Source: Candidatus Uhrbacteria bacterium RIFCSPHIGHO2_12_FULL_60_25
GTDB taxonomy: Bacteria > Patescibacteriota > Patescibacteriia > 2-12-FULL-60-25
NCBI GenBank assembly: GCA_001791275.1
Contig: MGEH01000024.1
Coordinates: 11,097 to 75,096, forward strand
Reading direction: 5' to 3'
DNA length: 64,000 nt
In this document: positions 177 to 62,004 of the stretch, one piece after another
Numbering within the stretch: position 1 is the stretch's first letter
How the letters are laid out: each line of letters opens with the position of its first letter
Position numbers and translations under genes: made by a program
The notes under the pieces: generated by a model
Seen by the model: only the letters and a program-made list of their open reading frames with translations
Databases searched by the model: none
What the model was told of the DNA's origin: nothing

Positions 177-1346
177 TTACCATACAACGATAAATTTCAG
201 CACTGCGAAATACGTCTCCATCAACGGATTCGCGACCTTCCGCATGAACGGACTCTCCACGTCCTGATACGCGATTGCAGACACGAACCGTTTTAAGATC
301 TCGCGGTCCGAGCGTTTACGCAGGCTCCGCGTCTTGCGTCTCGTCGAGACAATGTAGCGCCACGTGGACGGCTTGAAGAACCAGGCCGTGGCGCGGCCCT
401 TCTCCTTGATCCAGCCGCCCTTGATCGCAAAGAGCCACGTGGCGATTTCAATCACGAACATCGCGGGCAACGTCAGAATGATTGTCCCGAGGCGATAATT
501 CATCAGAAAGACGGCCCAGCGGTTTCGCTCCATCCAGTACCACTTCTTCACCGAGCGTGAAAATTCGTAGCGGTGACGCAGGGTGCTCTTGGGCGCGAGC
601 AGGTTGTCGTGCCCCGCGATCATCATGCGCCAGCCCAGATCCAGGTCTTCGTGGTACGCGAAAAGCGTCTCGTCGAGCAGGCCGACCTCGCGGAGGACCG
701 AGTTGCGATAGAGGACGCCGGCACCGGACGCGTACGCGATCGGTTGGACGTCTCCCGGCGCTTCTGACACGGGTTGTTTGTACCCACGGCAGTAGCCGAA
801 CGCGGCGAAGTGGATGTCGTTCCCCGTGGAGTTGATCGTTGTCGGATCCTGCATGAGCACGAGGAGCGACTGGACAGAGCCCGCGTTCGGATGCGCTTCC
901 GCGACCGCGACCGCTTCGCGCAGCGACCCCTCTTCAAATGCCGCGTCGTGATTCAGAAGATAGCAGTAATCGGCCGTGGACGTCCGCATGACCAGATTGT
1001 TCCCTGCCGCGAAGCCCGTGTTCGACCCGGGTTCGTGCAACACGACCTTCGGCAGGTTTTCAGGAGGATTTGCGAGCACGGACTTCACGTAGTCCGCCGA
1101 CCCGTCGGACGACGCGTTGTCCACGATGTGGACCGTGAAGGCGTCGCGCGGGTAGTCCACGACGCACAACCCGCGCACGAGCTCTTCCAAATATGGCCGT
1201 GCGTTCCACGTGACCACGATGACGTCGACCACGGGAACCGGGAACCGGAAACCGGAAACCGGAAAATTGGAACAGGGTGGTGTTCCCCGTTCCCCGTTCC
1301 CGGTTCCCGGTTCCCGGTTCCCGGTTCCCTGTTCCCGGTCATTCAT
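177..1346 (-). CDS. Family 2 glycosyltransferase (GT-A fold) with hydrophobic C-terminal segments
   Basis: 389-aa ORF. VVDVIVVTWNARPYL...HIVDNASSDGS is a typical GT2 N-terminus. The first ~38 codons are encoded by the heptamer hairpin; an alternative GTG start lies at 1230-1232. Confidence 0.9.
   Translation of the reverse strand: MNDREQGTGNREPGTGNGERGTPPCSNFPVSGFRFPVPVVDVIVVTWNARPYLEELVRGLCVVDYPRDAFTVHIVDNASSDGSADYVKSVLANPPENLPKVVLHEPGSNTGFAAGNNLVMRTSTADYCYLLNHDAAFEEGSLREAVAVAEAHPNAGSVQSLLVLMQDPTTINSTGNDIHFAAFGYCRGYKQPVSEAPGDVQPIAYASGAGVLYRNSVLREVGLLDETLFAYHEDLDLGWRMMIAGHDNLLAPKSTLRHRYEFSRSVKKWYWMERNRWAVFLMNYRLGTIILTLPAMFVIEIATWLFAIKGGWIKEKGRATAWFFKPSTWRYIVSTRRKTRSLRKRSDREILKRFVSAIAYQDVESPFMRKVANPLMETYFAVLKFIVVW
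1233..1336. repeat. Inverted heptamer arrays (GGGAACC-type x6, spacer, GGTTCCC-type x8) forming a long hairpin
   Basis: Read directly. 1233-1274 = GGGAACC GGGAACC GGAAACC GGAAACC GGAAAAT TGGAACA. 1281-1336 = TGTTCCC CGTTCCC CGTTCCC GGTTCCC x4 TGTTCCC. Confidence 0.9.
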
Positions 1347-1683
1347 GTTTCTGTTCCGGAAGTTCTTTGAGCGCGTCCTTCCTCACCACGTCTGTCAAAC
1401 GACGCTCAACGCGATCAAGCGTCAAAAAAATCTTGAACACGAGGAAGAAAAGCGTGACGACCGACGCGTACAACACGAAGTCCACGCCGCGGCCAACGCC
1501 GAAGAAGTTCGCCACCGTCGTGGTGGTCTGCGGAAGGAGGATGATGACGCCAGCGATCACCCAGAGCACGCTCCAGCCGAGCGCCTCGCGCCACGAGATG
1601 ACACCCTGCGTGGCACGACGCCAGGTGACGTAGAGCGCTAATACGAGGCTTGAAATTAATACAATCTGTATGAGCATATTCAT
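1339..1683 (-). CDS. Small membrane protein, DUF2304-like (commonly partnered with GT2 genes)
   Basis: Real start is MNMLIQIVLISS at 1683, in an ATGA overlap with the upstream stop. About 114 aa with three hydrophobic segments. The longer 215-aa ORF is an upstream extension overlapping the GT2 gene. Confidence 0.75.
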   Translation of the reverse strand: MNMLIQIVLISSLVLALYVTWRRATQGVISWREALGWSVLWVIAGVIILLPQTTTTVANFFGVGRGVDFVLYASVVTLFFLVFKIFLTLDRVERRLTDVVRKDALKELPEQKHE

Positions 1684-6602: not shown

Positions 6603-6663
6603 AATTTCTAATTTCTAATTTCTATAATAGAGTTTAGAAATTAGTCATTAGAAATTAGAAATT
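6603..6663. promoter_or_regulatory. AT-rich palindrome of heptamer arrays (TTTCTAA x3 / TTAGAAA x4) in a divergent promoter region
   Basis: 6605-6625 = TTTCTAA TTTCTAA TTTCTAT. 6634-6661 = TTAGAAA TTAGTCA TTAGAAA TTAGAAA. Lies between the divergent starts at 6599 (-) and 6717 (+). Confidence 0.5.
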
Positions 6664-9965: not shown

Positions 9966-11887
9966 ACGGAAACGTTATTGCCAACATGTTCTTCGACGTA
10001 CCCGGCCGGCAACTGCCAGAACGCACTCTGCGGATCCGGAATGATGACCCACGGACAGAACGCGCGGAAGGCGTACTTGTCCAACGTATGACGATTGATC
10101 GCCGCTTCGACGCGCTTCCAGTTCGCGTCGATCACGGCCTGACGGCACCCGATGAGTTCATTCGCCCGAGCCTGGTCGAACCCCATGCGTCGCAACACGT
10201 CCGCATAGAACGCATTGTGCGAATACTTGCTCCCTTCGGCGCACGGGATCGTTCGGTAGTGACCCGTGTAGAACCGGAAGAACCAGAGTTCGCCTGACGA
10301 CGTGACGCTGTATGCGCCCACCAGCGTCTCCAGATCGCGAATGACCTGCTCGCTTGAGTCGGGGTACGACAACGTGGGTTCAGCCGGATTCACGCGGCGT
10401 CCCGTATGGGCGGCGTAGAACGACGCGGATCCGGGATCGGCGCACATCATGTCTCCGGGCGGGACGTGAGACCTGATCCAGTCCACGACCGGGACGTTCA
10501 CCATGACCTCCGGGACCTTGGGAAAGTCCCGCAGGATGACGGGGATGCTTGCTCCGACCCCGATGGCTGCCATGGGCAGCGTGATGAGGATCGTGACGAC
10601 GGTCGTGTTCAGATGTGACGAGGTATGTCTCGACCGCCAGACCACGAGCCAGGCCGCCACGGCGAGCGCGAACCAGTGCGTCAGGTGGATCACGTACGAG
10701 TCGAACTTCCAGATATTCGATCGAAGCGGCTGCTGGAGCACGTAGACGAAGAACAACGTGGCGCCCGCGGCGACGACAAGCGGAAGTTGTTTGATGAGTG
10801 CATTTCCCAGTCCCCGTTTCCCAGTCCCCGTTTCCCAGTCCCCAGTCCCCAGACCCCAGACCGTGGCGAGCGAAAGCCATGCGAGCACGGCCACGGGCGC
10901 GATGAAGTGGTCGCTGTAGATATGGATGCCGGTGAACGGCGTGTTGAACCACAGGAAGAACAGGACGATCCATCCCCATGCCGCGAACGTGAGTCGATCG
11001 CGTGCGGCTGGCGACGCGGCGCGGCGCGCCAGTGCGAACAGGAACGCGATCCATGCGAGCATGGCAAGCACCGTGTTCGCGAAGAATGGCACGCGCGCGA
11101 ACACCATCCCGTTCCGCTCGTACATGCCCACGAGCCCTGCGCGCGCCGGATCGAGGAACCACTCTGCAAGCGGACCGGCGAGCGTCCACACGGTGATGAC
11201 GGAGAGCGCGACCAGGACCGGCAAGGTCCACGTGCGCAGCCGGACGAACCGCGCGGCCCAGATCGTGGCGAGCCAGAGTCCCGCGGGCATGAGGAACCAC
11301 GGGTAGAGGGTCGTGAGAAGGAGCGACGCGACGGACAGACCGATGGACCGGACGTATCGGTCTTTTTTCAGGGCTTCGTACGCCGGAAGGACGAGCGTAA
11401 GCCCGAGCATGCAAAACGGCAGGTACCACGAGTACATCCCGGGCCGGAGACTCAAGGGCAGGAGCGACAACCAGAGGCCCGCGATGACAGCGCGTGACGG
11501 CCAGCGCGCGATGCCTGACCACTGCTCCACGCACCAGGCGCCGATCCAGAGCGTGAGCGTGATCGCGATCCATCGGCTCACGATCCAGAGCTCCGGGACG
11601 CTCGCCCATGAGCCGACGAGCTTCCAGAGCGCCACGATGATAAGCGACCCGAACCATTTCAGGTGTCCGCCGTACGCGAGCCCGTTCGCCGCGGCGCCCA
11701 TCCAGTGCAGGTAGACGTACGTATCGAAGACCCCCGGAGTGACGGCGGGCACACGCCACCAACGTTCCACGTGCGCGGACACGTTCCAAATCCAATACGG
11801 CACCCAGGAGACAAGCCCTGTCAGGACCGGCACGCCGACCCACCATGCGCGCTCTCCATATCGCTTGAGGTCAAATGAGCGGGACAT
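9950..11887 (-). CDS. Large polytopic membrane protein, paralogue 1 of an unnamed family (GT-C-like candidate)
   Basis: 645 aa with many hydrophobic segments. Shares the VFDTYVYL loop motif, PFTGIHIYSDHF and four C-terminal Cys positions with the ORFs at 15274-17133 and 45625-47697. Confidence 0.85.
   Translation of the reverse strand: MSRSFDLKRYGERAWWVGVPVLTGLVSWVPYWIWNVSAHVERWWRVPAVTPGVFDTYVYLHWMGAAANGLAYGGHLKWFGSLIIVALWKLVGSWASVPELWIVSRWIAITLTLWIGAWCVEQWSGIARWPSRAVIAGLWLSLLPLSLRPGMYSWYLPFCMLGLTLVLPAYEALKKDRYVRSIGLSVASLLLTTLYPWFLMPAGLWLATIWAARFVRLRTWTLPVLVALSVITVWTLAGPLAEWFLDPARAGLVGMYERNGMVFARVPFFANTVLAMLAWIAFLFALARRAASPAARDRLTFAAWGWIVLFFLWFNTPFTGIHIYSDHFIAPVAVLAWLSLATVWGLGTGDWETGTGKRGLGNALIKQLPLVVAAGATLFFVYVLQQPLRSNIWKFDSYVIHLTHWFALAVAAWLVVWRSRHTSSHLNTTVVTILITLPMAAIGVGASIPVILRDFPKVPEVMVNVPVVDWIRSHVPPGDMMCADPGSASFYAAHTGRRVNPAEPTLSYPDSSEQVIRDLETLVGAYSVTSSGELWFFRFYTGHYRTIPCAEGSKYSHNAFYADVLRRMGFDQARANELIGCRQAVIDANWKRVEAAINRHTLDKYAFRAFCPWVIIPDPQSAFWQLPAGYVEEHVGNNVSVWKKP
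10803..10865. repeat. Nine tandem heptamers (TTTCCCA GTCCCCG ... GACCCCA) in-frame within the membrane-protein gene
   Basis: Read directly. The coding strand is TGGGGTC TGGGGAC TGGGGAC TGGGAAA CGGGGAC TGGGAAA CGGGGAC TGGGAAA, encoding GLGTGDWETGTGKRGLGN. Confidence 0.85.
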
Positions 11888-15273: not shown

Positions 15274-17133
15274 CTACTTTGCGCCGTATACGACGGCGGT
15301 CGCGTCTTCGTAGAGCTTGACGTAGGACAATGGGATTCGCCAGTCGTCCGAGAATCGTTCGTGAATTACGATCCGTTGGCAAAAATCGGAATCATTCGCG
15401 GTCTGTTGTGCCCATTGCAACTTCATTCGAGCGATCACTGCTGCACGAATCGCATTGGCCCGATCCTCGTCGCACCCGCTCAAAAATATACGCTGCGTCG
15501 CAGTAAATGGAATGAGGTTCAGGATCTGACGAGCGGTCGTTGACAAACAAGCGGCATCATGTGCAATGAGGATCATGTCGTCCATATACGAACGCTCAAT
15601 ACCTGCGTCTGGGTTCAAATACTTTGAGAACTCGACGAGGCGATCCTGAAGAACGCTCGTTGGAACGTGGTCGAACATCATCACCATCGCCGGACTGAAC
15701 GAAGCCCCGGTCGTTGAAGAGAGGTCGTCACCTGTTAGATAATCTGCACACCAACGACGCAAATGTACCTTCGTATCTTGGAGCATCCAGCTCCTTACAC
15801 CTATCAACTCAGAAGATAGCTGCGTTCGCTCCATTGCATACGCACCAACTGAAATAATACCTATCAGTGCATACACGAACGCTATGAAACACCAGATCAA
15901 ATTCAAACGAAGACGTGTGATTCCAGATAGGAGTCCGAGTGCAAGAAACGTCCAGCTTCCGATATGGATCAGGAGCGAGGAAAAATCCATGAATCGATAC
16001 ACGCCAATTGCATATTTAGAGAGGATATACATTGTAAAAGCGTATGCGACCATAGCGAGCACAAAAAGAATCGATCGCCAGCGGTTGAAAATTGACTCAC
16101 GTGCATATATTGGCCACGCCACAACTGAGAAAATAGAAAGGTGCCACACGGGGTAAATAAAATGATCGGATAATATCGAGATACCGGTCAGGAGCGATTG
16201 ATTCCAAAGAATTGCGACCGCTACCCACGCTGCGAGCATGACCTCTGTAGAAATACACCTCTGTGGAGATATGCGCCTCTGAAAAGATTGTGACCTTCGA
16301 AGTATCGTCCAAGCGATAATCCACAATATAATGATGAGTATGCTATTACTGAGGACAGGTAGGTGAGAAAATCCAAGTGCACCACGTTCCATAAGCTCAT
16401 AAGTCGAAGAACGTAAAAAAGTTTCCCACCAATCATGACGCATCAAGATAAGTCCTTCAGCAATTACGAAACCGACCGCGAGGATGATGATCGCCGACAA
16501 CGGCTCAAGAAATCGTTTCAAGAACAGCAGGACGCACGTAACAAGGATGACTGAAACATACCAGGGATAAACCGCCGAAATGAATAGTGCCACACCCCAT
16601 AACGCCGTGCCGCGTATTCTCTTTCCTATGGCAAGATCATATTCTCCGAGAACTACGAGGAGAAATCCGAGATAAAAAAATGGCACATACCACGAGGAAC
16701 CGCCTGGCCGAAGAATAAGAATTGATTGAACGGAAAGAAATGCGAGGAGACTATAAAATCTTGTTCCAACAATTGAGAGATCGGTCAATTTTTGTAACAA
16801 AATTGCAAGAAACCAAACGCTCAGGATTGCGGAGACGATAATACCAAGCACATAAAGTTCCGATAGTGATACATACGGCCAGATCAAACGTGCGACATAT
16901 TCCATCGGACGAAAATGAATTGGAAGAATGGTGGAACCATTAAATAGATCCTTTGACAAAATTTGCAAATAAAATGTCTGGTCAAAAAAAACTTTTGGTA
17001 AGGCCGAAATTCTTAGCCCCTTCGGTACTGAAAGGGCACCGAGCCCGAACCAATAGCTAGCACCGATCGCTACAGGCAGTACCCCATACCATACCCATGG
17101 CATCGAAAGCCACTTTTTCAATGTGAGTTTCAT
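15274..17133 (-). CDS. Large polytopic membrane protein, paralogue 2 of the unnamed family (lower-GC copy)
   Basis: 619 aa. FFDQTFYL loop motif, LLTGISILSDHF, and C-terminal Cys positions conserved with the 9950 and 45625 proteins. ATGA overlap with the upstream GT2. Confidence 0.85.
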   Translation of the reverse strand: MKLTLKKWLSMPWVWYGVLPVAIGASYWFGLGALSVPKGLRISALPKVFFDQTFYLQILSKDLFNGSTILPIHFRPMEYVARLIWPYVSLSELYVLGIIVSAILSVWFLAILLQKLTDLSIVGTRFYSLLAFLSVQSILILRPGGSSWYVPFFYLGFLLVVLGEYDLAIGKRIRGTALWGVALFISAVYPWYVSVILVTCVLLFLKRFLEPLSAIIILAVGFVIAEGLILMRHDWWETFLRSSTYELMERGALGFSHLPVLSNSILIIILWIIAWTILRRSQSFQRRISPQRCISTEVMLAAWVAVAILWNQSLLTGISILSDHFIYPVWHLSIFSVVAWPIYARESIFNRWRSILFVLAMVAYAFTMYILSKYAIGVYRFMDFSSLLIHIGSWTFLALGLLSGITRLRLNLIWCFIAFVYALIGIISVGAYAMERTQLSSELIGVRSWMLQDTKVHLRRWCADYLTGDDLSSTTGASFSPAMVMMFDHVPTSVLQDRLVEFSKYLNPDAGIERSYMDDMILIAHDAACLSTTARQILNLIPFTATQRIFLSGCDEDRANAIRAAVIARMKLQWAQQTANDSDFCQRIVIHERFSDDWRIPLSYVKLYEDATAVVYGAK

Positions 17134-17849
17134 TGATGCTTAGAAAATTTCTTATGGAACTGAAGCATCGCGCGACTCACACTCACCAAATTTTCCCAAC
17201 GCAATGCGGTGGACCGTCCTTGTCGTGGAAGGATACGCATAGGGACTTCTACAAACGATGCGCCTTCTCGAAGGAGCGTGAGTAGTATCTCTGCGGCATA
17301 TGCGAAACTTGGAGTTTCTGGCAATGCGCGACGAAGTTGATCGATCCGATATACATTAATCCCATTGAAGTAGCGGACACGACGATGGTACATGACATTT
17401 AATATTATCGTGAATACTCTCGAGATGAGACGTCGAAGCAACGACCGTACTTCAGGATTTTCCGTATACGTAACGACCATGTCGGCGGAACCAATCGCAC
17501 AAATGACGCGCGCGACAGATATACTGTCAATTTCATTATCTCCGGGAACCATGACCACATGATTCTTGGTCGCCGCCAAAACGGCGTTTCGATATTTTTC
17601 TCCGAGAAGCTGGTATGTAGGACTGTGAAGTACTCGAATGCGTGCGTCTGATGCCGCAAGCTCCTGTGCGATGAGCCGAGTTCGATCTTCACGCCCATCA
17701 CGATCCACGCACGTCACAATGATCATTTCATAATCCTGAATCTCCGCTTTCGTAAGAGCGCTGCGTACTCCCTGTATCGTCGCTTCAATATTACGCTCCT
17801 CATTCAATGCAGGGATGATGATACTCAAGGATATGTTCATGGCCTGCAA
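17130..17849 (-). CDS. GT2 glycosyltransferase, DPM1/GtrB-like
   Basis: 239 aa. LSIIIPALNEERNIE...VPGDNEID. Confidence 0.85.
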   Translation of the reverse strand: MQAMNISLSIIIPALNEERNIEATIQGVRSALTKAEIQDYEMIIVTCVDRDGREDRTRLIAQELAASDARIRVLHSPTYQLLGEKYRNAVLAATKNHVVMVPGDNEIDSISVARVICAIGSADMVVTYTENPEVRSLLRRLISRVFTIILNVMYHRRVRYFNGINVYRIDQLRRALPETPSFAYAAEILLTLLREGASFVEVPMRILPRQGRSTALRWENLVSVSRAMLQFHKKFSKHQ

Positions 17850-17892
17850 AGACTACAGAAGTGAGTCGCGATTGACAAGCAATATCGATCAC

Positions 17893-40264: not shown

Positions 40265-40386
40265 ATGATGGGTATTCCTTACATGGAAAAAACGAATACA
40301 TCAAGAGAGAACCAAAAAGGAAGACATCTTAATATTTCAAACAAGCCTGAAAAAACCGCTATAACGTTTGTAAGAAAAGCACAACA

Positions 40387-41634: not shown

Positions 41635-41758
41635 ACAGATCGACGATTAGGATAGTGTACTGTCAATCGTCATTTTTTTGCAAGGAATCAAGTTTCAAGA
41701 CAAATAACCCTTGCTATTGCAGTCGTTTCCCGATACAATTCACTCAATATTAATCGAT

Positions 41759-41968: not shown

Positions 41969-41977
41969 ATAACAGAC

Positions 41978-43672: not shown

Positions 43673-43699
43673 AAGTGAATGAAAGATAACAATTTCCTA

Positions 43700-45624: not shown

Positions 45625-47697
45625 ATGCCCGTTTTTTCCGCCGCCGTCAAACCCCCGGGATGGCTCGGTTATGCGGCTTTCCGCTTGACCATGGGCGTGT
45701 ATGAGCCTAGTCTGCATGTCATGTCCCCCTTCGCTGTCGCTCCGGGGGACGCGTGGAGCATGATGACACCGAAGGAACCCCGTCCCACGAAGCCCCGCAT
45801 ATTGCGGGGCGAAGTGGAATGGTGGCTCGGCGCGCCCATCGCGGTCGCACTCCTGACCTGGGGGCCGTATTGGGTCCGGAATCTCGCGATCGGACGCAAA
45901 GACTGGACTCGCATCCCGGCGCTCGCGGCGACCGTGTTTGACCTCACGGCCTATCTGCAACCGATCGGGCAAGCGATGACGGGTGTCGTGACCGCACATC
46001 TCATCGGTCCTTTCGCGCTGCTCATGCGTCTCATCGCGCTCACGTTCCCGAACGCGAGCGTGCCCGAAGCCTGGTTTGTGGCACGATGGATGGCGACGAC
46101 CGCGGCGCTGTTTGTATTCGCATGGTGCCTTGAGCGCTGGTCCGGAGTGGGTCGTAACATGGCGCGCCTGCTGTCGCTCTCATTCTGGATCGCGTTCATC
46201 CTCGTGCTCGGCATGAAACCCGGATTCGCCTCGTGGCTGTTCCCGTTTGGTGTGCTTGGGATGGTCGGTGTGACCATCGTTGGTGAGCGTCTCACAAAGC
46301 GACGGATCATTTCCGCGATCGTGTGGTCTGCCATCGCACTCACAAGTTCCTCGCTCTATGCCTGGTACTTTTTATTCGTTGCCGTGTGGCTCGGCGTGAC
46401 CTGGTTCCTCTGGCTCGTAAAAAATACTCCACGCGTCGCACTCTCGCTCGCCGCGATCGGGTCCGTATCCGCTTGCGTATTCGCCGTCGTGTTCGCCTAC
46501 TGGATCACGCTCACTCCCGCAGGCATCGTCTGGATCGAACTGACCCAACGCCTGTCATTGAGCTACACGCACATGATCTTCATCTCGGGATCCGTGCTGC
46601 TCACGATGCTCTGGACCGTTCTCTTCGGAGCAATCTATGCGGTCGCGAGTTCGGACGATCGACCAAAGATCGAGGTGACGGGCATTGCCTGGCTCTCGCT
46701 CCTCTTCACCTTCTTCCACTCCCCGTTCACCGGCCACTACATCCAGAACGATCACTTCCGAAGCGCCGCCGCGATCCTTTCCTGGTTCGCCCTCGCCGTC
46801 ATCTGGTCTCTCGTTCATCAAAGTCCGACGACGCACGACGCACGACGCACCCGTTTCATCCCCTATCTCACCCTCTTCATCTCCCTCGCCTACGTGATCC
46901 GCATCCTCGCCGCCCCCTATGCCTGGAACCGTGACTTCTTGAACGTGCTTCAACTCACGCACTGGTTCGCACTGCTCATCGCATCATGGCTCGCGATTCG
47001 ATGGATGCAAGGAAAGAAACCGCTCGAGACAAAGACGTTCGCGACCATCGTCCTTTCCGGATCACTCCTGATCGGAGGCAACGCAATGGCAGCGACCTAC
47101 TTCTATGAATTCAAAGACCTTCCAAAGATCGAAGCGCTCATACCCGTCTTCAACTGGGTGAAAGCGAATGTGCCACCAGGAATCTCAATCTGTACAGGCC
47201 AGGGAGGAGAAGGATTTAATATCGATGACATGTTGGCCGCTCAGACAGGACGTGTAGTGCATTTCTCACATACCACCATGTACCACAAAGAACGAGACGT
47301 AGCTCTTCTTGACAGGCTACGTGTTATTTCCGGTTTTTTTGATGCGGGAACGGCTGGTGATCAAGTAAACTGGCAGCTCTTGAGCTCAGAAAACCAATTC
47401 ATCGTCTGTGCTCAGTATCCCGTGCAGGTGAAGCTGTTCCATGCACTCGGTCTCTCTGAAGATCGTATTGATGCGCTCATCGGCTGTCCTCGAAAGACGA
47501 TCGATGCACGCTGGGCGTATGTGAAGGATGCGATGGATCACCCGATCCGAGACATGGAAGCGTTCAAGCGTGTGTGTCCATTTGTCGTCGTCCCGAACGC
47601 AAAAAAATCGTATTGGCATTTGCCGGATGACTATCGTGAAATCCCTGTGACGAACGAGATATACGTGTTTGCATCTATATCAACCGATCTTCGATGA
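45625..47697 (+). CDS. Large polytopic membrane protein, paralogue 3 of the unnamed family
   Basis: 690-aa ORF. By comparison with the paralogues, the start is likelier at 45721 or 45760. VFDLTAYL, PFTGHYIQNDHF and the conserved C-terminal Cys positions are present. Confidence 0.85.
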   Translation: MPVFSAAVKPPGWLGYAAFRLTMGVYEPSLHVMSPFAVAPGDAWSMMTPKEPRPTKPRILRGEVEWWLGAPIAVALLTWGPYWVRNLAIGRKDWTRIPALAATVFDLTAYLQPIGQAMTGVVTAHLIGPFALLMRLIALTFPNASVPEAWFVARWMATTAALFVFAWCLERWSGVGRNMARLLSLSFWIAFILVLGMKPGFASWLFPFGVLGMVGVTIVGERLTKRRIISAIVWSAIALTSSSLYAWYFLFVAVWLGVTWFLWLVKNTPRVALSLAAIGSVSACVFAVVFAYWITLTPAGIVWIELTQRLSLSYTHMIFISGSVLLTMLWTVLFGAIYAVASSDDRPKIEVTGIAWLSLLFTFFHSPFTGHYIQNDHFRSAAAILSWFALAVIWSLVHQSPTTHDARRTRFIPYLTLFISLAYVIRILAAPYAWNRDFLNVLQLTHWFALLIASWLAIRWMQGKKPLETKTFATIVLSGSLLIGGNAMAATYFYEFKDLPKIEALIPVFNWVKANVPPGISICTGQGGEGFNIDDMLAAQTGRVVHFSHTTMYHKERDVALLDRLRVISGFFDAGTAGDQVNWQLLSSENQFIVCAQYPVQVKLFHALGLSEDRIDALIGCPRKTIDARWAYVKDAMDHPIRDMEAFKRVCPFVVVPNAKKSYWHLPDDYREIPVTNEIYVFASISTDLR
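46830..46850. repeat. (GACGCAC)x3 perfect heptamer tract in-frame in the membrane-protein gene
   Basis: Read directly. Encodes part of TTHDARRT, in the loop homologous to the tract at 10803-10865. Confidence 0.8.
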
Positions 47698-53516: not shown

Positions 53517-56059
53517 ATCTTTTTCTTACGTCGCAATCGGTCCCAAATGACGACGAGCGCCATCGCCGCCAGAATCGCGAGCAGATTATCCAACGGAATC
53601 CGGTACTTCGTGTACCCAGCGATGATGGAATGCAACGCGGAATACACCGCAAAGACGATCAGGATCGGGACGATAACCCCGAACATCTTCCGTCGCTTCG
53701 CGAGGACGAGTCCGGCGAGCGTCAAGACTTCAAGTGCGAAGACGTACCCAGCGAGCGACCAGCGCGCCGCCATGATTTTCCAGCCCGCGTCCGCGAATGA
53801 CCATTGCGCGCCGTATTTCAACCCAGGCTGAAGCATCGGTGACCAGAACCCGGCGACCTTCAACGCCTGCAACTTCCATCCTTCAGACCAGTAGTTTTGC
53901 TTCAACCAATCCATCCCAACCTTCGTCCAGTAGTCGTTGAACTCCGGCTCGCTCATCGCTCCAGTATCCTTGCACGATGTCCGACTGTCACCAGGTTCAT
54001 GAGGATGCCACTCGGTGAACAGTCGTGACGGTTTGAGCCAACCCCGTTCGCGAAGCGCCGCTTCGACTTCCGGCAGCATCACGTACCGCACCTCCTGCGG
54101 GTTGTCCGGATTGAACACGCGCTCGCTCGTCTGCACTTCCTGCGGGAATCCGAGGACCGTGAGACCGTACATATTTTCGCTGTTCGCCTTGGCCAAGGCA
54201 TGTCCCAAATCCGTAGTCAGCGGCACGAACCGGTGGAACGCCTGCCAGTTCCGGTACGTCCACGGCGCAATGAGCGCGGCCGAGACGATCCCCATGATCG
54301 CGATCGCGAGCACTGCGCGCTTCACGTCCTTTCGCCAGCGCCACAAAAGCCATGCGGACAAAAGGACGGTCGCGGGCAGAATCGTCCCTTGGACGTACGC
54401 CAACGCCGCGATCCAAACGCCGGTCCCGACGGCCCATCGCATTCGCTTCGTCTCTTCGAGACGCAGCAGACTGAAGAGCAGCGTCACGAGGAACAAGCCG
54501 GACAGCACCGTGTGGTAGTACTGCGTGTAGTGATAGAAGGTGTACGGATGGATGGCGGTCAGAACCGCCGCGACGAGACCGACTCGACGGTCTTTCGTGA
54601 GCGCCCAGCCCAGGCGGTAGACCATGTACGTGAGAAGGACGGCCAGAGCGTTTTGGACGACTGCCTGCGCAAAGAAATTCGCAAACCCGAACAACCCGTA
54701 CACTCCCGTCAAGAAAAACAAAAAGCCGGGCGAACGGTACGCCGACACGCACCCGACGTCCTGCACGAACGAGTAGCCGTATCCCAGGAACCAATTCTGC
54801 ACGAGGGTGAAGAATCCCCACTCGCGATTCGCACCAAGCGTCTTCCAGAAAAGCGCCACGGACAGGCCTCGCACGAGAACCGCGAATCCGATCACCCCCG
54901 CCGTCCACATCCATACACGACGGCCGGGAACCGGGAACGGGGAACCGAGAACCGTCCATGCAGCGTGCTGCCGACGGACGAGCTCCCCAGCATCAGGAAA
55001 CTCCTTCGATCTCTCATACGCATTCTTCACCATCCACTCGCGGCGCTCTGACTCCGACAGTTGCTCGCGAATCGCCGCGACGAGCCCCGCGATATCATTA
55101 GGTTGGACGACACGACCATCTATTTGCGGCCTGAAAAACGATCCCACGCACCCCACATCCGTCGTCACGATCGGCACGCGCGCGGCCATTGCTTCCACGA
55201 TCGTCCTCCCCCACCCTTCATATCGGGAAGACAGAACGAACAGGTCAGCACCGCGCCACAGGTCTTCCTGTGAAGACCAAGGCTCGATCGTGACGATATC
55301 ACTCAGCTTGAGATCATGAATAAGCCGTTCGACGGCTCGCCGGAGCGGTCCTGCGCCGACAAGTCGCGCTCGAAAATCGACACCTTGCTCACGAAGCGAC
55401 GCGAGCGCACGGACGAGCACATCCAGCCCCTTCTGCTTCACGAACCGGCACGGCGCCACGATCGTCGGCGCCTTGGACCAAGGCTTTGGTTCTCGCGAGA
55501 GAAGACCCGTCAGGTTCTGCGCAACCGGAATAACGCTGATGCGGTCGGCCGCGACGTGACATCGCCGGACCAGATGATCGCGTACCCGCTCACTCACGAC
55601 CCTCACGCCGTCCGCGCGGCGCAGGAAGAACTTTCCCCACCCGGCCATGACTTCGTGAAAAAACGGCAATTCGCGCTCCCACGCGCCCGAATAGTAGTCC
55701 GCGTGCTCCTGGACCTCGTACGGAACGTCGAGCAGCCGTGAGACGAGAAAAGCGACGAAACCGGCCGCGAACGGATCTTGCGCCGTGATGATCGGCGTCT
55801 CGCCGGTCTTGCGCGCTCGCCTGACCGCCCGCATGACGGCGACGGTTGCTTTCCACACGCGGACGATTGCATTGCCGCGAAAACCGTACACGCACGTCTG
55901 CGAATCTCCGCGCTCCGCGTTCTGATGCGCGTTCGCGAGCAACACCGCGGTCACGCGGACGTCGTCTGACGCGAGAGCCGCGAGACGGCCCGAAGATTCT
56001 GACGCCGGATCCAGGAATCCGCGCTCGTACGACAGCATGATGATGCGGAGCGGCTTCAT
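53513..56059 (-). CDS. Fusion: GT4 glycosyltransferase (N, ~385 aa) + GT-C/PMT_2-like polytopic membrane domain (C, ~460 aa)
   Basis: 848 aa. N-terminal part has YEGWGRTIVEAMAARVPIVTTDVG. The C-terminal part has many TM segments. The domain junction is encoded by the heptamer tract (SPFPVPGR). Confidence 0.88.
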   Translation of the reverse strand: MKPLRIIMLSYERGFLDPASESSGRLAALASDDVRVTAVLLANAHQNAERGDSQTCVYGFRGNAIVRVWKATVAVMRAVRRARKTGETPIITAQDPFAAGFVAFLVSRLLDVPYEVQEHADYYSGAWERELPFFHEVMAGWGKFFLRRADGVRVVSERVRDHLVRRCHVAADRISVIPVAQNLTGLLSREPKPWSKAPTIVAPCRFVKQKGLDVLVRALASLREQGVDFRARLVGAGPLRRAVERLIHDLKLSDIVTIEPWSSQEDLWRGADLFVLSSRYEGWGRTIVEAMAARVPIVTTDVGCVGSFFRPQIDGRVVQPNDIAGLVAAIREQLSESERREWMVKNAYERSKEFPDAGELVRRQHAAWTVLGSPFPVPGRRVWMWTAGVIGFAVLVRGLSVALFWKTLGANREWGFFTLVQNWFLGYGYSFVQDVGCVSAYRSPGFLFFLTGVYGLFGFANFFAQAVVQNALAVLLTYMVYRLGWALTKDRRVGLVAAVLTAIHPYTFYHYTQYYHTVLSGLFLVTLLFSLLRLEETKRMRWAVGTGVWIAALAYVQGTILPATVLLSAWLLWRWRKDVKRAVLAIAIMGIVSAALIAPWTYRNWQAFHRFVPLTTDLGHALAKANSENMYGLTVLGFPQEVQTSERVFNPDNPQEVRYVMLPEVEAALRERGWLKPSRLFTEWHPHEPGDSRTSCKDTGAMSEPEFNDYWTKVGMDWLKQNYWSEGWKLQALKVAGFWSPMLQPGLKYGAQWSFADAGWKIMAARWSLAGYVFALEVLTLAGLVLAKRRKMFGVIVPILIVFAVYSALHSIIAGYTKYRIPLDNLLAILAAMALVVIWDRLRRKKKI
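54926..54953. repeat. Four GGGAACC-type heptamers at the GT4/GT-C domain junction
   Basis: GGGAACC GGGAACG GGGAACC GAGAACC read directly on the plus strand. The gene is on the minus strand, so the coding strand reads GGTTCCC-type units. Confidence 0.75.
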
Positions 56060-57219
56060 AGATTCAGGGCTTCCAGCGTCTTCTTCACCATGGTCTCAAA
56101 TCGCAACGCGTCCGGCACGGCCGGCGTCGTCCGTTCAGGCCATGGTCCTGACAGGGCGGTACGCCATGCGCCGACGTCACCATACGGCAAGACGCGCACG
56201 AGCTCGCCCAAGAGCTCGCGCGTCTCCGGGTTCCCGCCCTTGTCGCTCACGAAGCTCGGCAGACCCACGGACGCGGCCTCGGGCACCACGTGCGGGAAGC
56301 CTTCGTATCCGGACGGAAGGACGAACAGGTCGGCCGCGCGGTACCAGTCCGCGAGCGCCGTGCGGTCGAGTCTGCCGACAAACCGCACTCGGTCACCGAC
56401 GCCCCGTTCAGACGCGAGTTTTTTCCAGTCGTCCAACGATGGCCCGTCGCCTGCGACTACTAAGACGACGTCGCTGGGCAGGTCGGACATGATCCCGATG
56501 ATAAAATCCACGCCTTTCCAAGGCACGCATCGCACCGCCGTGAGCATCACGCGCTTACCCTCGATGTTGAGTCGCATCGTCGAAGAGGGCAGCGGTTCTG
56601 CCGCATTGTAAATGACGCGAATGCGTCCTTCCGGCACGCCCCATGCCTTCACGACAGACGCGAGATACCGGCTCGGCACGATCATGCGGATCGCCCGTTT
56701 CGCCGTCCATCGCTCGATCCATTCCAAGACGCGGACCGTCCCCACATGCCGATGCGTCAAAAATTCATCCAACAATTCTTTTCGTCCGGTTCCCGGTTCC
56801 CCGTTCCCGGTTCCCCGTTCCCGGTTCCCGGCTTCCCGTTCCCCGTTCCCGGTTCCCTGATACATCTCCCATGCATAATCCCCAACCACCTTCATCACCG
56901 TGGATTTGCCAGCGAGCATCGCACCGATCGTGCCTGGCAGACCCTCCGAGACAGGCCCTTGAAGATAAACGACGTCAACGAGCCGTGCTCTGCGACGTAC
57001 GGTATCCGCAAACTTCCAATATCGTGCCAAAATGTTGCGATTGCGTCCGATCCGTTCAACCGGATATCCGTCCACGTGCTCAATCCCGTCTTTCTCGCCG
57101 TATGCGACCACCTGCACTTCGTGCTCTGAAGACAACGCTGCCCGAGCAAAGGCCCGGGTGTATGTGGCAGGTCCGCCTGCGTCCGGCGGATAGATGCCAG
57201 TTGCAAGAAGTATCTTCAT
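56056..57219 (-). CDS. GT4 glycosyltransferase carrying a repeat-encoded insertion
   Basis: 387 aa. MKILLATGIYPPDAGGPA and YEGFPHVVPEAASVGLPSFVSD. Contains an internal QGTGNGEREAGNRERGTGNGEPGTGRK segment. Confidence 0.9.
   Translation of the reverse strand: MKILLATGIYPPDAGGPATYTRAFARAALSSEHEVQVVAYGEKDGIEHVDGYPVERIGRNRNILARYWKFADTVRRRARLVDVVYLQGPVSEGLPGTIGAMLAGKSTVMKVVGDYAWEMYQGTGNGEREAGNRERGTGNGEPGTGRKELLDEFLTHRHVGTVRVLEWIERWTAKRAIRMIVPSRYLASVVKAWGVPEGRIRVIYNAAEPLPSSTMRLNIEGKRVMLTAVRCVPWKGVDFIIGIMSDLPSDVVLVVAGDGPSLDDWKKLASERGVGDRVRFVGRLDRTALADWYRAADLFVLPSGYEGFPHVVPEAASVGLPSFVSDKGGNPETRELLGELVRVLPYGDVGAWRTALSGPWPERTTPAVPDALRFETMVKKTLEALNL
56788..56857. repeat. Ten tandem GGTTCCC-type heptamers in-frame within the GT4 gene
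   Basis: GGTTCCC GGTTCCC CGTTCCC GGTTCCC CGTTCCC GGTTCCC GGCTTCC CGTTCCC CGTTCCC GGTTCCC, read directly. Confidence 0.9.
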
Positions 57220-61935: not shown

Positions 61936-61943
61936 ATAGATAA

Positions 61944-62004
61944 GTGCTTGGGTGCTTGAGTGCGAGAGACCCTCGTGCACTCAAGCACTCAAGCACTCAA
62001 GCAC
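61944..62004. promoter_or_regulatory. Palindrome of octamer arrays (TTGAGTGC-type x2.5 / GCACTCAA x3.5) in a divergent promoter region
   Basis: 61944-61963 = GTGC TTGGGTGC TTGAGTGC. 61977-62004 = GCACTCAA GCACTCAA GCACTCAA GCAC. Lies between the divergent starts at 61935 (-) and 62055 (+). Confidence 0.5.

What the first reader, a model, noticed from the sequence alone, without database searches (positions are those of the whole stretch)
1233..1336. 104-nt hairpin built from opposed heptamer arrays exactly between a DUF2304 stop and the GT2 catalytic domain
The left arm is GGGAACC GGGAACC GGAAACC GGAAACC GGAAAAT TGGAACA. The right arm is TGTTCCC CGTTCCC CGTTCCC GGTTCCC x4 TGTTCCC. The two arms can pair over about 40 bp in several registers.

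The element fills the space between the TGA of the upstream gene (1339-1341) and the first conserved GT2 residues (VVDVIVVTWN; a GTG lies at 1230-1232). The longest ORF starts at the ATG at 1344-1346, which overlaps the upstream gene by 8 nt. It reads straight through the hairpin as MNDREQGTGNREPGTGNGERGTPPCSNFPVSGFRFPVP.

So the element is either a translated low-complexity N-terminal extension or an intercistronic hairpin that must be melted for coupled translation. In either case, changes in unit number would alter expression of this glycosyltransferase.
Basis: partly seen in the sequence, partly recalled or inferred. Interest (0 to 1): 0.8.

Follow-up and report, generated by a model that had tools for sequence, protein, structure and literature searches.

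The report
Translated heptamer-repeat hairpin in glycosyltransferase gene
A 104-base hairpin built from two mirror-image runs of a 7-base repeat sits inside the first codons of a sugar-transferase gene of an uncultured groundwater bacterium; it is most likely translated, is one of many such repeats in this genome, and could switch the gene on and off when it gains or loses repeats.

Summary
Window 1233-1336 holds 6 + 8 opposed heptamers, and the mRNA (minus) strand folds at -97 kcal/mol (z -9).

It is probably not an intercistronic spacer. Orthologues of this GT2 gene (Candidatus Uhrbacteria) start at the same ATG, which overlaps the DUF2304 stop by 8 nt, and read M-N-D/E-R-x-P-T-VDVIVV. Here a 96-nt in-frame block is inserted after codon 4. 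AlphaFold predicts the inserted residues to be disordered.

Close relatives differ at the same site:
- One carries an 81-nt hairpin with a complementary change of unit in both arms (GGGGACT/AGTCCCC).
- One carries a 36-nt remnant with no hairpin.
- About 100 more distant orthologues carry nothing.

Read-level protein contigs from the same aquifer suggest an allele two units shorter. It would stay in frame through a second ATG 4 nt downstream (ATGAATGA). This allele is inferred and could be an assembly artefact.

The element is not unique. Period-7 arrays are strongly enriched in the window. They lie in frame inside other glycosyltransferase and membrane genes, or form mirror-array hairpins between genes. 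The same unit forms such hairpins in other phyla.

Best reading: an in-situ palindromic microsatellite, tolerated in frame, with phase-switch potential. This is a new variant of known kinds (neuO, hmw1A, STRR/TAACTGA/Geobacter heptamers).

The parts
1281..1336 (-). 5' arm of the hairpin in mRNA sense: eight heptamers (GGGAACA, GGGAACC x4, GGGAACG x2, GGGAACA). Encodes E5..G21 of the long ORF.
   Evidence: fold
1275..1280 (-). Centre between the two arrays (CCACCC in mRNA sense); lies in the predicted hairpin loop.
1233..1274 (-). 3' arm in mRNA sense: six heptamers (TGTTCCA, ATTTTCC, GGTTTCC x2, GGTTCCC x2). The T-for-C variants pair as G.U in the mRNA but give A.C mismatches in the antisense strand.
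   Evidence: sense -85.9 against antisense -70.4 kcal/mol; 4 against 0 G.U pairs
1344..1346 (-). ATG-A: ancestral GT2 start codon, 8-nt overlap with the end of DUF2304. In frame with GT2 in the window allele.
   Evidence: same overlap and MN(D/E)R start in orthologues
1340..1342 (-). ATG-B: second ATG of ATGAATGA, 4 nt downstream (ATGA overlap with the DUF2304 stop). Out of frame here (85-aa ORF 1085..1342). Would be in frame after -2 or +1 heptamers, and is the apparent start of the P0091/P0132 allele.
1339..1341 (-). TGA stop codon of the DUF2304 gene; the first heptamer begins 3 nt downstream.
1230..1232 (-). In-frame GTG (V39) directly after the 3' arm. Candidate alternative start in the rival 'intercistronic' reading.
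   Evidence: no SD-like motif upstream; the upstream bases are the hairpin arm
177..1346 (-). GT2 glycosyltransferase CDS (389 aa). Residues 1 to about 35 are disordered; the first strand is 40-46.
   Evidence: Pfam; orthologues; AlphaFold (mean pLDDT 91.9; first three 10-residue blocks 42, 49, 50)
1339..1683 (-). DUF2304 membrane-protein CDS upstream (gene callers start it at 1677).
   Evidence: Pfam; gene calls
6603..6663 (.). Family member: AT-rich mirror-array hairpin (AATTTCT x3 / AGAAATT-type x4) ending about 4 nt before the ATG (6599) of the S8 protease gene.
   Evidence: -22.4 kcal/mol, z -7.2
10803..10862 (-). Family member: GGGGACT/GGGAAAC/GGGGTCT-type heptamer array, in frame in a loop of a 645-aa polytopic membrane ORF.
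46828..46850 (+). Family member: (ACGACGC) x3.3, in frame in a 690-aa membrane ORF.
54924..54954 (-). Family member: same unit (GGTTCCC-type in mRNA sense) x4.4, in frame in the variable linker between the GT4 and PMT_2 domains of an 848-aa ORF.
56786..56857 (-). Family member: same unit (GGGAACC-type in mRNA sense) x10.3 = 72 nt, in frame. It is an insertion of about 22 aa in a loop of a GT4 enzyme relative to orthologues (GDYAWEM-Q[..]-LLDEF).
61943..62004 (.). Family member: mirror arrays of an octamer (TTGAGTGC)n / (GCACTCAA)n between the divergent AsnB and GT4 genes, 6 nt upstream of the AsnB ATG (61936).
   Evidence: -45.2 kcal/mol, z -9.8

Best explanation
The element is a palindromic heptanucleotide microsatellite that arose and evolves in place inside the 5' coding region of the GT2 gene. 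It is translated.

Shown:
- It is a lineage-specific insertion of 96 nt between codon 4 and the conserved Pro-x-Val-Asp of an otherwise conserved N-terminus.
- The start codon is the ancestral ATG that overlaps the DUF2304 stop.
- The frame is kept in every allele on record.
- The inserted 32 residues are predicted to be disordered.
- It belongs to a genome-wide population of 7- and 8-nt tandem arrays. These lie in frame in loops or linkers of glycosyltransferases and membrane proteins, or occur as mirror-image array pairs that fill intergenic spacers.

Inferred:
- Origin. The arrays grow and shrink by replication slippage. The inverted copy arises, and is kept complementary, by intrastrand template switching (one arm templating the other). 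This would explain why a relative has changed the unit in both arms in a complementary way.
- Selection removes only the versions that break the frame.
- Frame switching. The unit is 7 nt and two ATGs lie 4 nt apart (ATGAATGA). A change of 0 or +/-3 units leaves ATG-A in frame. A change of -2 or +1 units puts ATG-B in frame. A change of -1 or +2 units silences GT2. The tract can therefore act as a slipped-strand switch with two ON phases.
- Initiation. In the fold of window 1215-1355 an outer helix already pairs the AUG, and the long repeat stem starts 11-16 nt after its A. Initiation should therefore depend on ribosomes that terminate on DUF2304 and melt the base of the structure (translational coupling).

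My estimates: about 0.75 that it is translated from the ATGAATGA start region, about 0.7 that it originated in situ by slippage and template switching, and about 0.3 that it really works as a phase-variation switch in nature.
For: Ancestral start and insertion.
- 120 homologues cover about 90% of the query, and nearly all of them are 350-370 aa. In the 99 homologues where the first-strand motif could be located, the N-terminal lead before it is mostly 3-9 aa, for example MNDRVPTVDV and MNDRIPTVDV.
- DUF2304 and GT2 overlap by 8 nt in L001-L003, L005, L133 and L134.
- Alignment A3 gives insertions of 96, 81, 36, 0 and 0 nt.

Frame kept.
- L004 reads MTEWGQGTGKWGLRADDQSARLVQVPSPRPPVPSIDVIVV from the same ATG.
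- L005 reads MIENERPSSVVQTPLAAPTVDAIVV.

Hairpin kept with changed units.
- The window pairs GGGAACC with GGUUCCC. L004 pairs GGGGACU with AGUCCCC (-65.5 kcal/mol, z -3.6). The first and last units of the two elements are homologous.
- L005, at 88% protein identity, has lost the 5' arm and the fold (z +0.9). The hairpin is therefore dispensable for the enzyme.

Apparent length variant.
- P0091 and P0132 (SRR3989338) start MTGNREPGTGNVEQVTPPCSNF. This matches the window with two GGGAACC units removed and a start at ATG-B.

Disorder.
- pLDDT is 42-50 over the first three 10-residue blocks, and the first strand is 40-46.

Genome-wide class.
- The window has 8 period-7 arrays of at least 3 copies against 0 in 20 shuffles, none of period 6 or 9-12, and one of period 8.
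- In-frame arrays lie in the GT4, GT4-PMT_2 and membrane ORFs.
- A second hairpin lies inside a CDS (L001 9706-9784, inside a 741-aa ORF).
- Intergenic mirror-array hairpins occur in the window, in L004 and in L133.
- Each hairpin has its own unit sequence, which argues for in-situ origin.

Distribution among genes.
- Arrays occur in 8 of 26 glycosyltransferase or membrane genes against 0 of 27 soluble enzymes (Fisher p = 0.0018).
Against: - No out-of-frame (OFF) allele is on record. 16 contigs and two MAGs carry the identical 8+6 allele, so hypermutability is unproven.
- The shorter allele is known only from SRC contigs, which I believe are protein-level (Plass) assemblies. A heptamer repeat encodes the same heptapeptide in all three frames, so a frame-B N-terminus could have been spliced onto frame-A sequence. 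No DNA could be fetched.
- Keeping the frame in four alleles is only weakly significant if two of three phases are open (about 0.2 by chance).
- The conserved ATGAATGA could be explained by the DUF2304 C-terminus alone.
- Most in-CDS arrays lie mid-protein in loops, are short (3-10 units) and are often imperfect. That fits tolerated mutational debris better than tuned contingency loci.
- The same unit, GGGAACC, recurs at five loci in about 70 kb and in many phyla. Pure in-situ origin from random seeds does not explain this.
- G.U pairs favour the mRNA-sense fold in both in-CDS hairpins. This hints at selection on RNA structure that the neutral part of this explanation does not need.
Confidence: 0.6

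Rival explanations
1. Untranslated intercistronic hairpin. The insertion pushed the functional GT2 start to GTG 1232. The hairpin is a spacer between the DUF2304 stop and the new start, like the mirror-array hairpins that fill other intergenic spacers in this clade. It gates GT2 translation or mRNA stability.
For: - The hairpin runs exactly from 3 nt after the TGA to the GTG.
- Four intergenic mirror-array hairpins end 4-12 nt before a start codon: window 6603-6663 and 61943-62004, L004 5370-5445, L133 6548-6682.
- Orthologues with leads of only 2-4 aa exist, so M-VDVIVV could be functional.
- The annotation of L004 starts the gene after the element (P0002).
- ATGAATGA may be conserved for the DUF2304 C-terminus alone.
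Against: - The ancestral ATG and its upstream context are intact, and ribosomes terminating at the TGA would be positioned to restart there. Those ribosomes read through the hairpin in frame anyway.
- All alleles keep an open frame from the ATGAATGA region.
- The conserved Pro two residues before VDV is retained in frame.
- There is no SD-like motif before the GTG, and the GTG abuts the stem, so de novo initiation there is unlikely.
- Comparable arrays, and one hairpin, sit mid-gene and must be translated.
Confidence: 0.15
2. Selected RNA device. The long mRNA hairpin is itself the functional unit, for example an RNase III processing site or a translation throttle that sets GT2 levels, as in the H. 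influenzae hmw1A leader. The repeats are only the material it is built from.
For: - The complementary unit change in both arms between the window and L004 preserves pairing.
- The fold is stronger in mRNA sense than in antisense for both in-CDS hairpins (-85.9 against -70.4 and -60.6 against -45.7 kcal/mol; 4 against 0 and 6 against 1 G.U pairs).
- Precedent: in hmw1A the (ATCTTTC)n repeats form the left arm of a long hairpin that RNase III cuts (PMC12721329).
Against: - L005 has lost the hairpin, and about 100 orthologues never had it.
- Arm-to-arm templating would give the same covariation without selection.
- The G.U bias could come from C-to-T mutation on the non-template strand, and repeated units are not independent events.
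- No Rfam family matches.
- Mirror-array hairpins with unrelated sequences occur at many unrelated sites.
Confidence: 0.15
3. Mobile palindromic element (MITE- or RPE-like) that inserted in frame into the GT2 gene and other genes.
For: - In-frame palindromic insertions in unrelated genes are the hallmark of Rickettsia palindromic elements (PMC10969869).
- The same heptamer unit occurs at five loci here and as mirror-array hairpins in Gemmatimonadota, Phycisphaerae, Actinomycetota, Acidobacteriota and Alphaproteobacteria.
Against: - The copies share only the 7-nt unit. Unit number, loop and ends differ.
- Other hairpins in the same genome use unrelated units (AATTTCT, GCACTCAA, ACAGGACG, AATGCCT).
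- I saw no terminal inverted repeats distinct from the arrays and no target-site duplications, and none of the window ORFs scanned against Pfam matched a transposase family.
- The window and L004 elements are homologous at their ends but diverged internally, which points to evolution in place.
Confidence: 0.08

Closest known systems
neuO poly-psi motif (E. coli K1, CUS-3 prophage): heptanucleotide VNTR in the 5' coding region of a capsule O-acetyltransferase
   Same: - A 7-nt unit lies directly after the start codon of a surface-glycan-modifying enzyme.
- It is translated as an N-terminal repeat that the enzyme does not need for activity.
- Full-length translation happens only in the right phase, and slippage changes the length (PMC3046976).
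   Different: - neuO has one direct array of 2-93 perfect copies, and its high-frequency switching has been demonstrated.
- Here there are two opposed, imperfect arrays of 8 and 6 units forming a hairpin, and twin ATGs that open two of three phases.
- No OFF allele and no switching rate are known here.
hmw1A 5'-UTR (ATCTTTC)n hairpin of Haemophilus influenzae
   Same: A heptamer SSR forms an arm of a long mRNA hairpin just upstream of the body of a surface-factor gene. Repeat number and RNA structure jointly set expression (PMC12721329).
   Different: - There the repeats are in the untranslated leader and pair with a non-repetitive G-rich arm, and RNase III processing is demonstrated.
- Here both arms are repeat arrays, the hairpin lies inside the ORF, and processing is untested.
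Dispersed heptamer arrays: cyanobacterial STRR, Beggiatoaceae/Cyanobacteria/Bacteroidetes TAACTGA repeats, Geobacter metallireducens GGACCGG elements and paired octa- or heptanucleotide sites
   Same: - Genome-wide excess of period-7 (and period-8) tandem arrays, both intergenic and intragenic.
- They often lie next to start codons.
- The same unit occurs across phyla with no known mechanism.
- Intragenic copies lie at protein peripheries.
- In Geobacter, arrays come in pairs on opposite strands.
- Sources: PMC4679880; PMC2700814; bioRxiv 10.1101/2022.06.06.494920; the Vioque 1997 title as cited.
- The window array at 10803-10862 even has the STRR1 unit CCCCAGT; that identity is from my memory of Mazel et al. 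1990.
   Different: - The taxon differs (Candidate Phyla Radiation, about 60% G+C), and so do the units.
- None of those reports describes a near-perfect 40-bp hairpin of two opposed arrays translated inside a conserved enzyme gene, or a complementary unit change between relatives.
Rickettsia palindromic elements (RPE)
   Same: Palindromic inserts of about 100-150 bp found in frame inside unrelated protein-coding genes, and tolerated because they encode surface peptides (PMC10969869).
   Different: RPEs are families of conserved full-length sequences that spread as copies. Here only a 7-nt unit is shared, and the elements differ in length, loop and unit.

Membership tests
SSR contingency locus (slipped-strand phase variation) | Tandem tract with a unit that is not a multiple of 3, inside the ORF or promoter of the regulated gene | tested here: met
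   8 + 6 heptamers starting 11 nt after the A of the ATG
SSR contingency locus (slipped-strand phase variation) | Tract length differs by whole units among closely related strains | tested here: inconclusive
   P0091 and P0132 fit a 5' arm two units (14 nt) shorter. However, they are read- or protein-level SRC contigs and no DNA is available. 16 contigs and 2 MAGs are identical.
SSR contingency locus (slipped-strand phase variation) | Both in-frame (ON) and out-of-frame (OFF) alleles occur in natural populations | tested here: not met
   All alleles found are in frame from ATG-A or ATG-B. This rests on assemblies only, not on reads.
SSR contingency locus (slipped-strand phase variation) | High-frequency reversible switching of the phenotype | not testable with these tools
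   The organism is uncultured and no read-level or experimental data are available.
neuO-type translated 5' heptanucleotide VNTR | Repeat tract directly downstream of the start codon, translated, and dispensable for the catalytic fold | tested here: met
   The insertion lies after codon 4. Orthologues lack it. pLDDT is 42-50 over the first three 10-residue blocks.
neuO-type translated 5' heptanucleotide VNTR | Single direct array of identical units with wide copy-number range | tested here: not met
   There are two opposed, imperfect arrays. The only lengths seen are 8+6 and possibly 6+6.
hmw1A-type SSR hairpin leader | Heptamer SSR forms an arm of a long stable mRNA hairpin next to the start of the gene | tested here: met
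   -96.9 kcal/mol, z -9.0, stem of about 42 pairs
hmw1A-type SSR hairpin leader | Located in the untranslated leader and processed by RNase III | tested here: not met
   Here the hairpin lies downstream of the conserved start codon and inside the ORF. RNase III cleavage is not testable with these tools.
Dispersed heptamer arrays (STRR / TAACTGA / Geobacter type) | Genome-wide excess of tandem 7-nt arrays, intergenic and intragenic | tested here: met
   8 arrays of period 7 against 0 in shuffles in 64 kb, and none of period 6 or 9-12. More occur in L001, L004 and L133.
Dispersed heptamer arrays (STRR / TAACTGA / Geobacter type) | One dominant unit sequence characteristic of the lineage | tested here: inconclusive
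   GGGAACC occurs at 5 loci, but at least 8 other units are present. Only about 75 kb of the genome was seen.
MITE / Rickettsia palindromic element | Multi-copy conserved full-length sequence with terminal inverted repeats and target-site duplication | tested here: not met
   Copies share only the unit. Ends, loops and lengths differ. I noticed no target-site duplication at the GT2 site in alignment A3, but I ran no dedicated search for one.
MITE / Rickettsia palindromic element | In-frame palindromic insertion in unrelated genes | tested here: met
   GT2 (this element) and the 741-aa ORF in L001 9706-9784
Intrinsic (Rho-independent) terminator | G+C-rich hairpin followed by a U tract | tested here: not met
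   The stem is followed by GUGGUCGACGUC. The element was not reported by the terminator scan.
Any curated RNA family (Rfam 15) | Match at gathering score | tested here: not met
   0 matches in the whole window

The most novel reading that the evidence does not exclude
Mirror-image heptamer-array hairpins may be a distinct, cross-phylum class of self-renewing DNA element with its own generating mechanism: hairpin-templated slippage that copies unit changes from one arm to the other. In Candidate Phyla Radiation bacteria, members sitting in glycosyltransferase genes would serve as real contingency switches for the cell surface. This one would be a three-state switch (ATG-A ON / ATG-B ON / OFF) that is coupled to translation of the upstream DUF2304 gene.
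Probability: 0.2. Interest if true: 0.75.

Novelty: new variant of a known kind. Interest (0 to 1): 0.55.

Why it matters
Candidate Phyla Radiation bacteria are uncultured, are thought to live attached to host cells, and devote large islands to surface glycans. This whole 64-kb window is one such island. No phase-variation system has been described for them in the literature I could search.

A heptamer tract in the first codons of a glycosyltransferase, with twin start codons, is a concrete hypothesis for surface variation. It can be tested with existing metagenomic reads.

Separately, dispersed heptamer arrays in cyanobacteria, Beggiatoaceae and Geobacter remain unexplained, and period 7 itself has no accepted explanation. 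This locus adds three things to that question:
- a lineage far from the known ones;
- arrays that are translated inside conserved enzymes;
- a pair of relatives in which both arms of a hairpin changed unit in a complementary way. That constrains the mechanism to arm-to-arm templating or selection on pairing.

If the element is only tolerated debris, it is still a practical warning. Gene callers mis-start such genes (L004), and protein-level assemblers can splice the three frames of a heptamer repeat.

Tried and rejected
- **DNA for the variant allele P0091.** Not on record.
- **Members of the 90% clusters of four array-bearing proteins.** They differ only in start calls, truncation, scattered substitutions and one 42-residue internal gap away from the array (P0126). 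None differs in copy number.
- **Rfam and terminator scan.** Nothing at the element.
- **Shine-Dalgarno argument for the start codon.** Only 9 of 32 genes have an SD-like motif, so I dropped it as uninformative.
- **Programmed -1 frameshift site.** I considered the units as slippery heptamers. They are GGGAACC, not an X XXY YYZ pattern in frame, and nothing requires a frame change. Rejected on the sequence alone.
- **T4 gene 60-type translational bypass.** Rejected because the ORF is open through the element.
- **"The array at 54924-54954 created the GT4+PMT_2 gene fusion".** Rejected. Homologues of 844-876 aa have the same fused architecture, and the array sits in a variable linker.
- **Assembly artefact.** Rejected, because the identical protein is on 16 contigs and the loci fetched come from ENA, NCBI and JGI assemblies.
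- **Enrichment in 'surface' genes as evidence for contingency function.** Only partly usable, because nearly every gene in the window is glycan-related.
- **** was an empty-structure mistake and gave no result.
Full report
**1. The observation**

- On the + strand, 1233-1274 holds six heptamers of the GGGAACC type, 1275-1280 is GGGTGG, and 1281-1336 holds eight heptamers of the GGTTCCC type.
- The genes lie on the minus strand. The DUF2304 gene ends with TGA at 1341..1339. An ATG at 1346..1344 opens a 389-aa ORF that runs through the repeats into a GT2 glycosyltransferase (Pfam Glyco_tranf_2_3 and Glycos_transf_2). A GTG lies at 1232..1230.
- TRF finds 4.9 and 8.3 copies of period 7. The arms pair over 41-46 nt at 80-84% complementarity in at least four registers.
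- The mRNA-sense RNA folds at -96.9 kcal/mol against -56.2 +/- 4.5 for shuffles (z -9.0). As single-stranded DNA both strands also fold well (z -7.0 and -5.4).
- Two units with up to 2 mismatches occur 23 times in the window against 0.56 expected.
- The identical protein is on 16 contigs; the loci fetched come from ENA, NCBI and JGI assemblies. The element is real.
- The organism is Candidatus Uhrbacteria bacterium RIFCSPHIGHO2_12_FULL_60_25, a Candidate Phyla Radiation genome. I believe the sample comes from the Rifle aquifer; that is my inference from the organism name, not a tool result.

**2. It is an insertion into an old coding sequence, not a spacer**

- 120 homologues of the GT2 protein cover about 90% of the query, and nearly all are 350-370 aa.
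- Their N-termini are short. In the 99 homologues where the first-strand motif could be located, the lead before it is mostly 3-9 residues, and many read MNDRVPTVDV, MNDRIPTVDV or MNERTPTVDV.
- I fetched the DNA of two such orthologues. In L133 (61% identity) and L134 (74%) the DUF2304 gene ends ...CAT GAA TGA and the GT2 gene starts at the ATG inside it. This is the same 8-nt overlap as in the window.
- The alignment (A3) shows the window sequence as ATG AAT GAC CGG, then a 96-nt block, then CCC GTG GTC GAC.
- The ancestral M-N-D-R and the conserved Pro-x-Val-Asp (Pro is at least 90% conserved) therefore flank a 32-codon in-frame insertion.
- AlphaFold2 with 55 sequences gives a confident GT-A fold (mean pLDDT 91.9). 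The first three 10-residue blocks score 42, 49 and 50 with no secondary structure, and the first strand is residues 40-46.

**3. What close relatives have at the site**

| Relative | GT2 identity | Content at the site | Fold |
|---|---|---|---|
| L004 (GCA_035561755.1) | 87% | 81-nt insertion, in frame from the same ATG (MTEWGQGTGKWGLRADDQSARLVQVPSPRPPVPSIDVIVV) | hairpin, -65.5 kcal/mol, z -3.6 |
| L005 (GCA_964359385.1) | 88% | 36 extra nt; they align with the 3' half of the L004 element | none (z +0.9) |

- The L004 hairpin is built from a different unit: GGGGACA GGGGACT GGTAAAT GGGGACT ... AGTCCCC AGCCCCC GGCCCCC AGTTCCC.
- The first unit (GGGrACA) and the last unit (rGTTCCC) align with those of the window. 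The two elements therefore look homologous.
- The core units differ at two positions, and the change is complementary in the two arms: GGGAACC paired with GGUUCCC, against GGGGACU paired with AGUCCCC.
- All three insertion lengths are multiples of three.
- The hairpin is therefore young, evolves fast, keeps its pairing while changing sequence, and can be lost without losing the gene.

**4. A possible length polymorphism, and the twin ATGs**

- A search with the first 140 residues found three read-level proteins with SRR3989xxx accessions, the same run series as other read-level members of this population.
- P0131 (SRR3989344) is the window allele.
- P0091 and P0132 (SRR3989338) begin MTGNREPGTGNVEQVTPPCSNFSVPGSRFPVP[G/V]VDVIVV.
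- That N-terminus is the translation from the second ATG of ATGAATGA (window 1342..1340, 4 nt downstream, an ATGA overlap with the stop). It reaches TPPCSNF after 15 codons instead of 21.
- 63 nt against 4 + 45 nt is a difference of 14 nt, exactly two heptamers.
- Deleting two GGGAACC units from the window in silico and starting at ATG-B reproduces the length and register of P0132.
- The same simulation gives the rule. A change of 0 or +/-3 units leaves ATG-A in frame. A change of -2 or +1 units puts ATG-B in frame. A change of -1 or +2 units leaves both out of frame.

Caveat. The SRC contigs are, to my knowledge, protein-level (Plass) assemblies. A heptamer repeat encodes the same heptapeptide (GTGNREP) in all three frames, so a frame-B start could have been spliced onto frame-A sequence. 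The amino-acid substitutions in this allele are real differences, and no frame-A version of it is on record. I still rate the 6+6 allele as only about 65% real. No DNA was retrievable, and the metagenome scan that might have settled it returned only distant relatives. No out-of-frame allele was found anywhere.

**5. The element is one of many**

Period-7 arrays of at least three copies occur 8 times in the window and 0 times in 20 shuffles. Periods 6 and 9-12 give none and period 8 gives one.

The other arrays fall into two groups.
- **In frame inside genes.**
  - 56786-56857 is 72 nt of the same unit inside a GT4 enzyme. Orthologues read GDYAWEMAQQKGEKTLLDEF at that point, so the array is an insertion of about 22 aa in a loop.
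  - 54924-54954 lies in the variable linker of an ancestrally fused GT4-PMT_2 protein.
  - 10803-10862 and 46828-46850 lie in polytopic membrane ORFs.
  - Four more lie just beyond the window in L001. One of these is a second in-CDS hairpin, at -60.6 kcal/mol.
- **Mirror-array hairpins in intergenic spacers.**
  - 6603-6663 is made of AT-rich heptamers and ends about 4 nt before the S8 protease ATG.
  - 61943-62004 is made of octamers and ends 6 nt before the AsnB ATG.
  - L004 5370-5445 and a 62-bp perfect palindrome at L133 6548-6682 are further examples.

Each hairpin has its own unit, which argues against copies of one mobile element.

Arrays occur in 8 of 26 glycosyltransferase or membrane genes and in 0 of 27 soluble enzymes (p = 0.0018). 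However, the whole window is a glycan island, and loops of such proteins may simply tolerate insertions.

**6. Beyond this lineage**

- (GGGAACC)3 occurs in more than 119 stretches of the GTDB species set. The hosts include Gemmatimonadota, Acidobacteriota, Phycisphaerae, Streptomyces, Bifidobacteriaceae and others.
- 27 of 124 arrays have the reverse-complement unit within 200 nt.
- Several are clean mirror-array hairpins right after stop codons, for example L081 and L013.
- Array length modulo 3 is flat (45/40/39).
- The same-unit, cross-phylum pattern recalls the TAACTGA repeats of Beggiatoaceae, Cyanobacteria and Bacteroidetes (PMC4679880).
- It also recalls Geobacter metallireducens, which has 49 intra- and intergenic GGACCGG x4 elements and paired opposite-strand octa- and heptanucleotide sites (PMC2700814).

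**7. Mechanism**

Shown:
- an in-frame insertion at the ancestral start;
- a stable hairpin in the mRNA;
- fast evolution with complementary changes in the two arms;
- membership of a genome-wide class.

Inferred, from established knowledge of replication slippage and of template-switch correction of quasi-palindromes (recalled, not tested here):
- The arrays expand and contract by slippage.
- The inverted copy arises, and is homogenised with its partner, by intrastrand templating.
- Selection filters out the versions that break the frame.

Consequences for GT2:
- (a) The tract sets which of the twin ATGs, if either, is in frame.
- (b) In the fold an outer helix pairs the AUG, and the long repeat stem starts 11-16 nt after it. 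This lies within the stretch of mRNA that an initiating 30S subunit must hold single-stranded (general knowledge). Initiation should therefore depend on ribosomes terminating at the DUF2304 TGA.

Both in-CDS hairpins fold better in mRNA sense than in antisense because their mismatches are G.U (-85.9 against -70.4 and -60.6 against -45.7 kcal/mol). This could mean selection on the RNA, for example as an RNase III substrate as in hmw1A (PMC12721329). It could also reflect strand-biased C-to-T mutation. I cannot separate the two.

**8. Comparison and verdict**

The element works like the neuO poly-psi tract, a heptanucleotide VNTR 2 nt after the start codon that is translated and phase-dependent (PMC3046976). 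It looks like the hmw1A repeat hairpin. It fails defining features of both: it is not a single perfect array with proven switching, and it is not in an untranslated leader with proven RNase III cleavage. It is not a MITE or RPE, not a terminator and not an Rfam family.

I file it as a new variant of known kinds. It is a translated, palindromic heptamer microsatellite in the 5' end of a CPR glycosyltransferase gene, with plausible but unproven phase-switch behaviour.

- Confidence in the composite best explanation: 0.6.
- Probability that it is a genuine contingency switch: about 0.3.
- Interest: 0.55.

Noticed in passing
window 6603-6663: AT-rich hairpin made of opposed heptamers (AATTTCT x3 / AGAAATT-type x4; -22.4 kcal/mol, z -7.2). 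It lies in the divergent spacer between the Bac_transf gene and the S8 protease gene and ends about 4 nt before the protease ATG. The orthologous spacer in L133 is only 20 nt, so this is a lineage-specific insertion.
   Followed up: partly
window 61943-62004: Hairpin made of opposed OCTAMER arrays, (TTGAGTGC)n / (GCACTCAA)n (-45 kcal/mol, z about -9.8). It lies between the divergent AsnB and GT4 genes, 6 nt upstream of the AsnB start (ATG 61936, MCGIA).
   Followed up: partly
window 56786-56857, 54924-54954, 10803-10862, 46828-46850; L001 6849-6878, 7533-7561, 7887-7911, 9706-9784: Heptamer or octamer arrays lie in frame inside glycosyltransferase and polytopic membrane ORFs, in loops or linkers. 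L001 9706-9784 is a second hairpin inside a CDS. Arrays were found in 8 of 26 GT or membrane genes and in 0 of 27 soluble enzymes (p = 0.0018).
   Followed up: partly
L006-L124 (genome-contig hits), e.g. L081 6365-6500, L013 5228-5586, L019 3850-4005, L024 4195-4300, L072 5245-5405: The same unit pair, (GGGAACC)n ... (GGTTCCC)n, forms mirror-array hairpins in unrelated high-GC phyla (Gemmatimonadota, Phycisphaerae, Actinomycetota, Acidobacteriota, Alphaproteobacteria). Several lie directly after stop codons. I do not know why one heptamer recurs across phyla.
   Followed up: partly
L133 6548-6682: A 62-bp perfect palindrome (-106 kcal/mol) containing octamer arrays (CAAACACC / GGTGTTTG) fills the spacer between the GtrA and epimerase genes of a related Uhrbacteria-like genome. 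The window has only a 34-nt spacer there.
   Followed up: no
window 56640-56860 (GT4 gene); proteins P0134, P0138: Two read-level SRC contigs join the heptamer array of the GT4 gene directly to the PSRYL motif about 36 codons downstream, one of them out of frame. Either a deletion variant arose next to the array (microhomology AGCCGG), or these are assembly chimeras caused by the repeat.
   Followed up: no
window 10803-10862 and L004 2900-3000: The unit GGGGACT/AGTCCCC is a rotation of CCCCAGT. From memory, that is the STRR1 heptamer of heterocystous cyanobacteria. L004 also has (TTAGTCA) x4.3, one base from STRR2 (TTGGTCA). This may be coincidence, or there may be a shared preference for certain heptamers.
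   Followed up: no
window 16000-18000 and 40000-44000: Two low-G+C patches (0.46 and 0.38-0.46, against about 0.60 elsewhere) lie inside the glycan island. They cover a GT2 gene and ORFs with no Pfam match (15274-17133, 41978-43672). They are probably horizontally acquired cassettes.
   Followed up: no
L004 3001-4047 (P0002) against L004 2893: The public annotation starts the L004 GT2 gene at a GTG inside the conserved DVIVV strand, cutting off the element and part of the first strand. Repeat hairpins of this kind appear to mislead start-codon calling.
   Followed up: partly
window 1-64000: The whole 64-kb window is one glycan-biosynthesis island. It holds about 15 glycosyltransferases, 3 DegT aminotransferases, 2 UDP-GlcNAc 2-epimerases, 2 AsnB-like amidotransferases, a flippase, GtrA, a radical-SAM/SPASM enzyme and an E1/transketolase-like fusion. 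That is unusually large for a CPR genome.
   Followed up: partly
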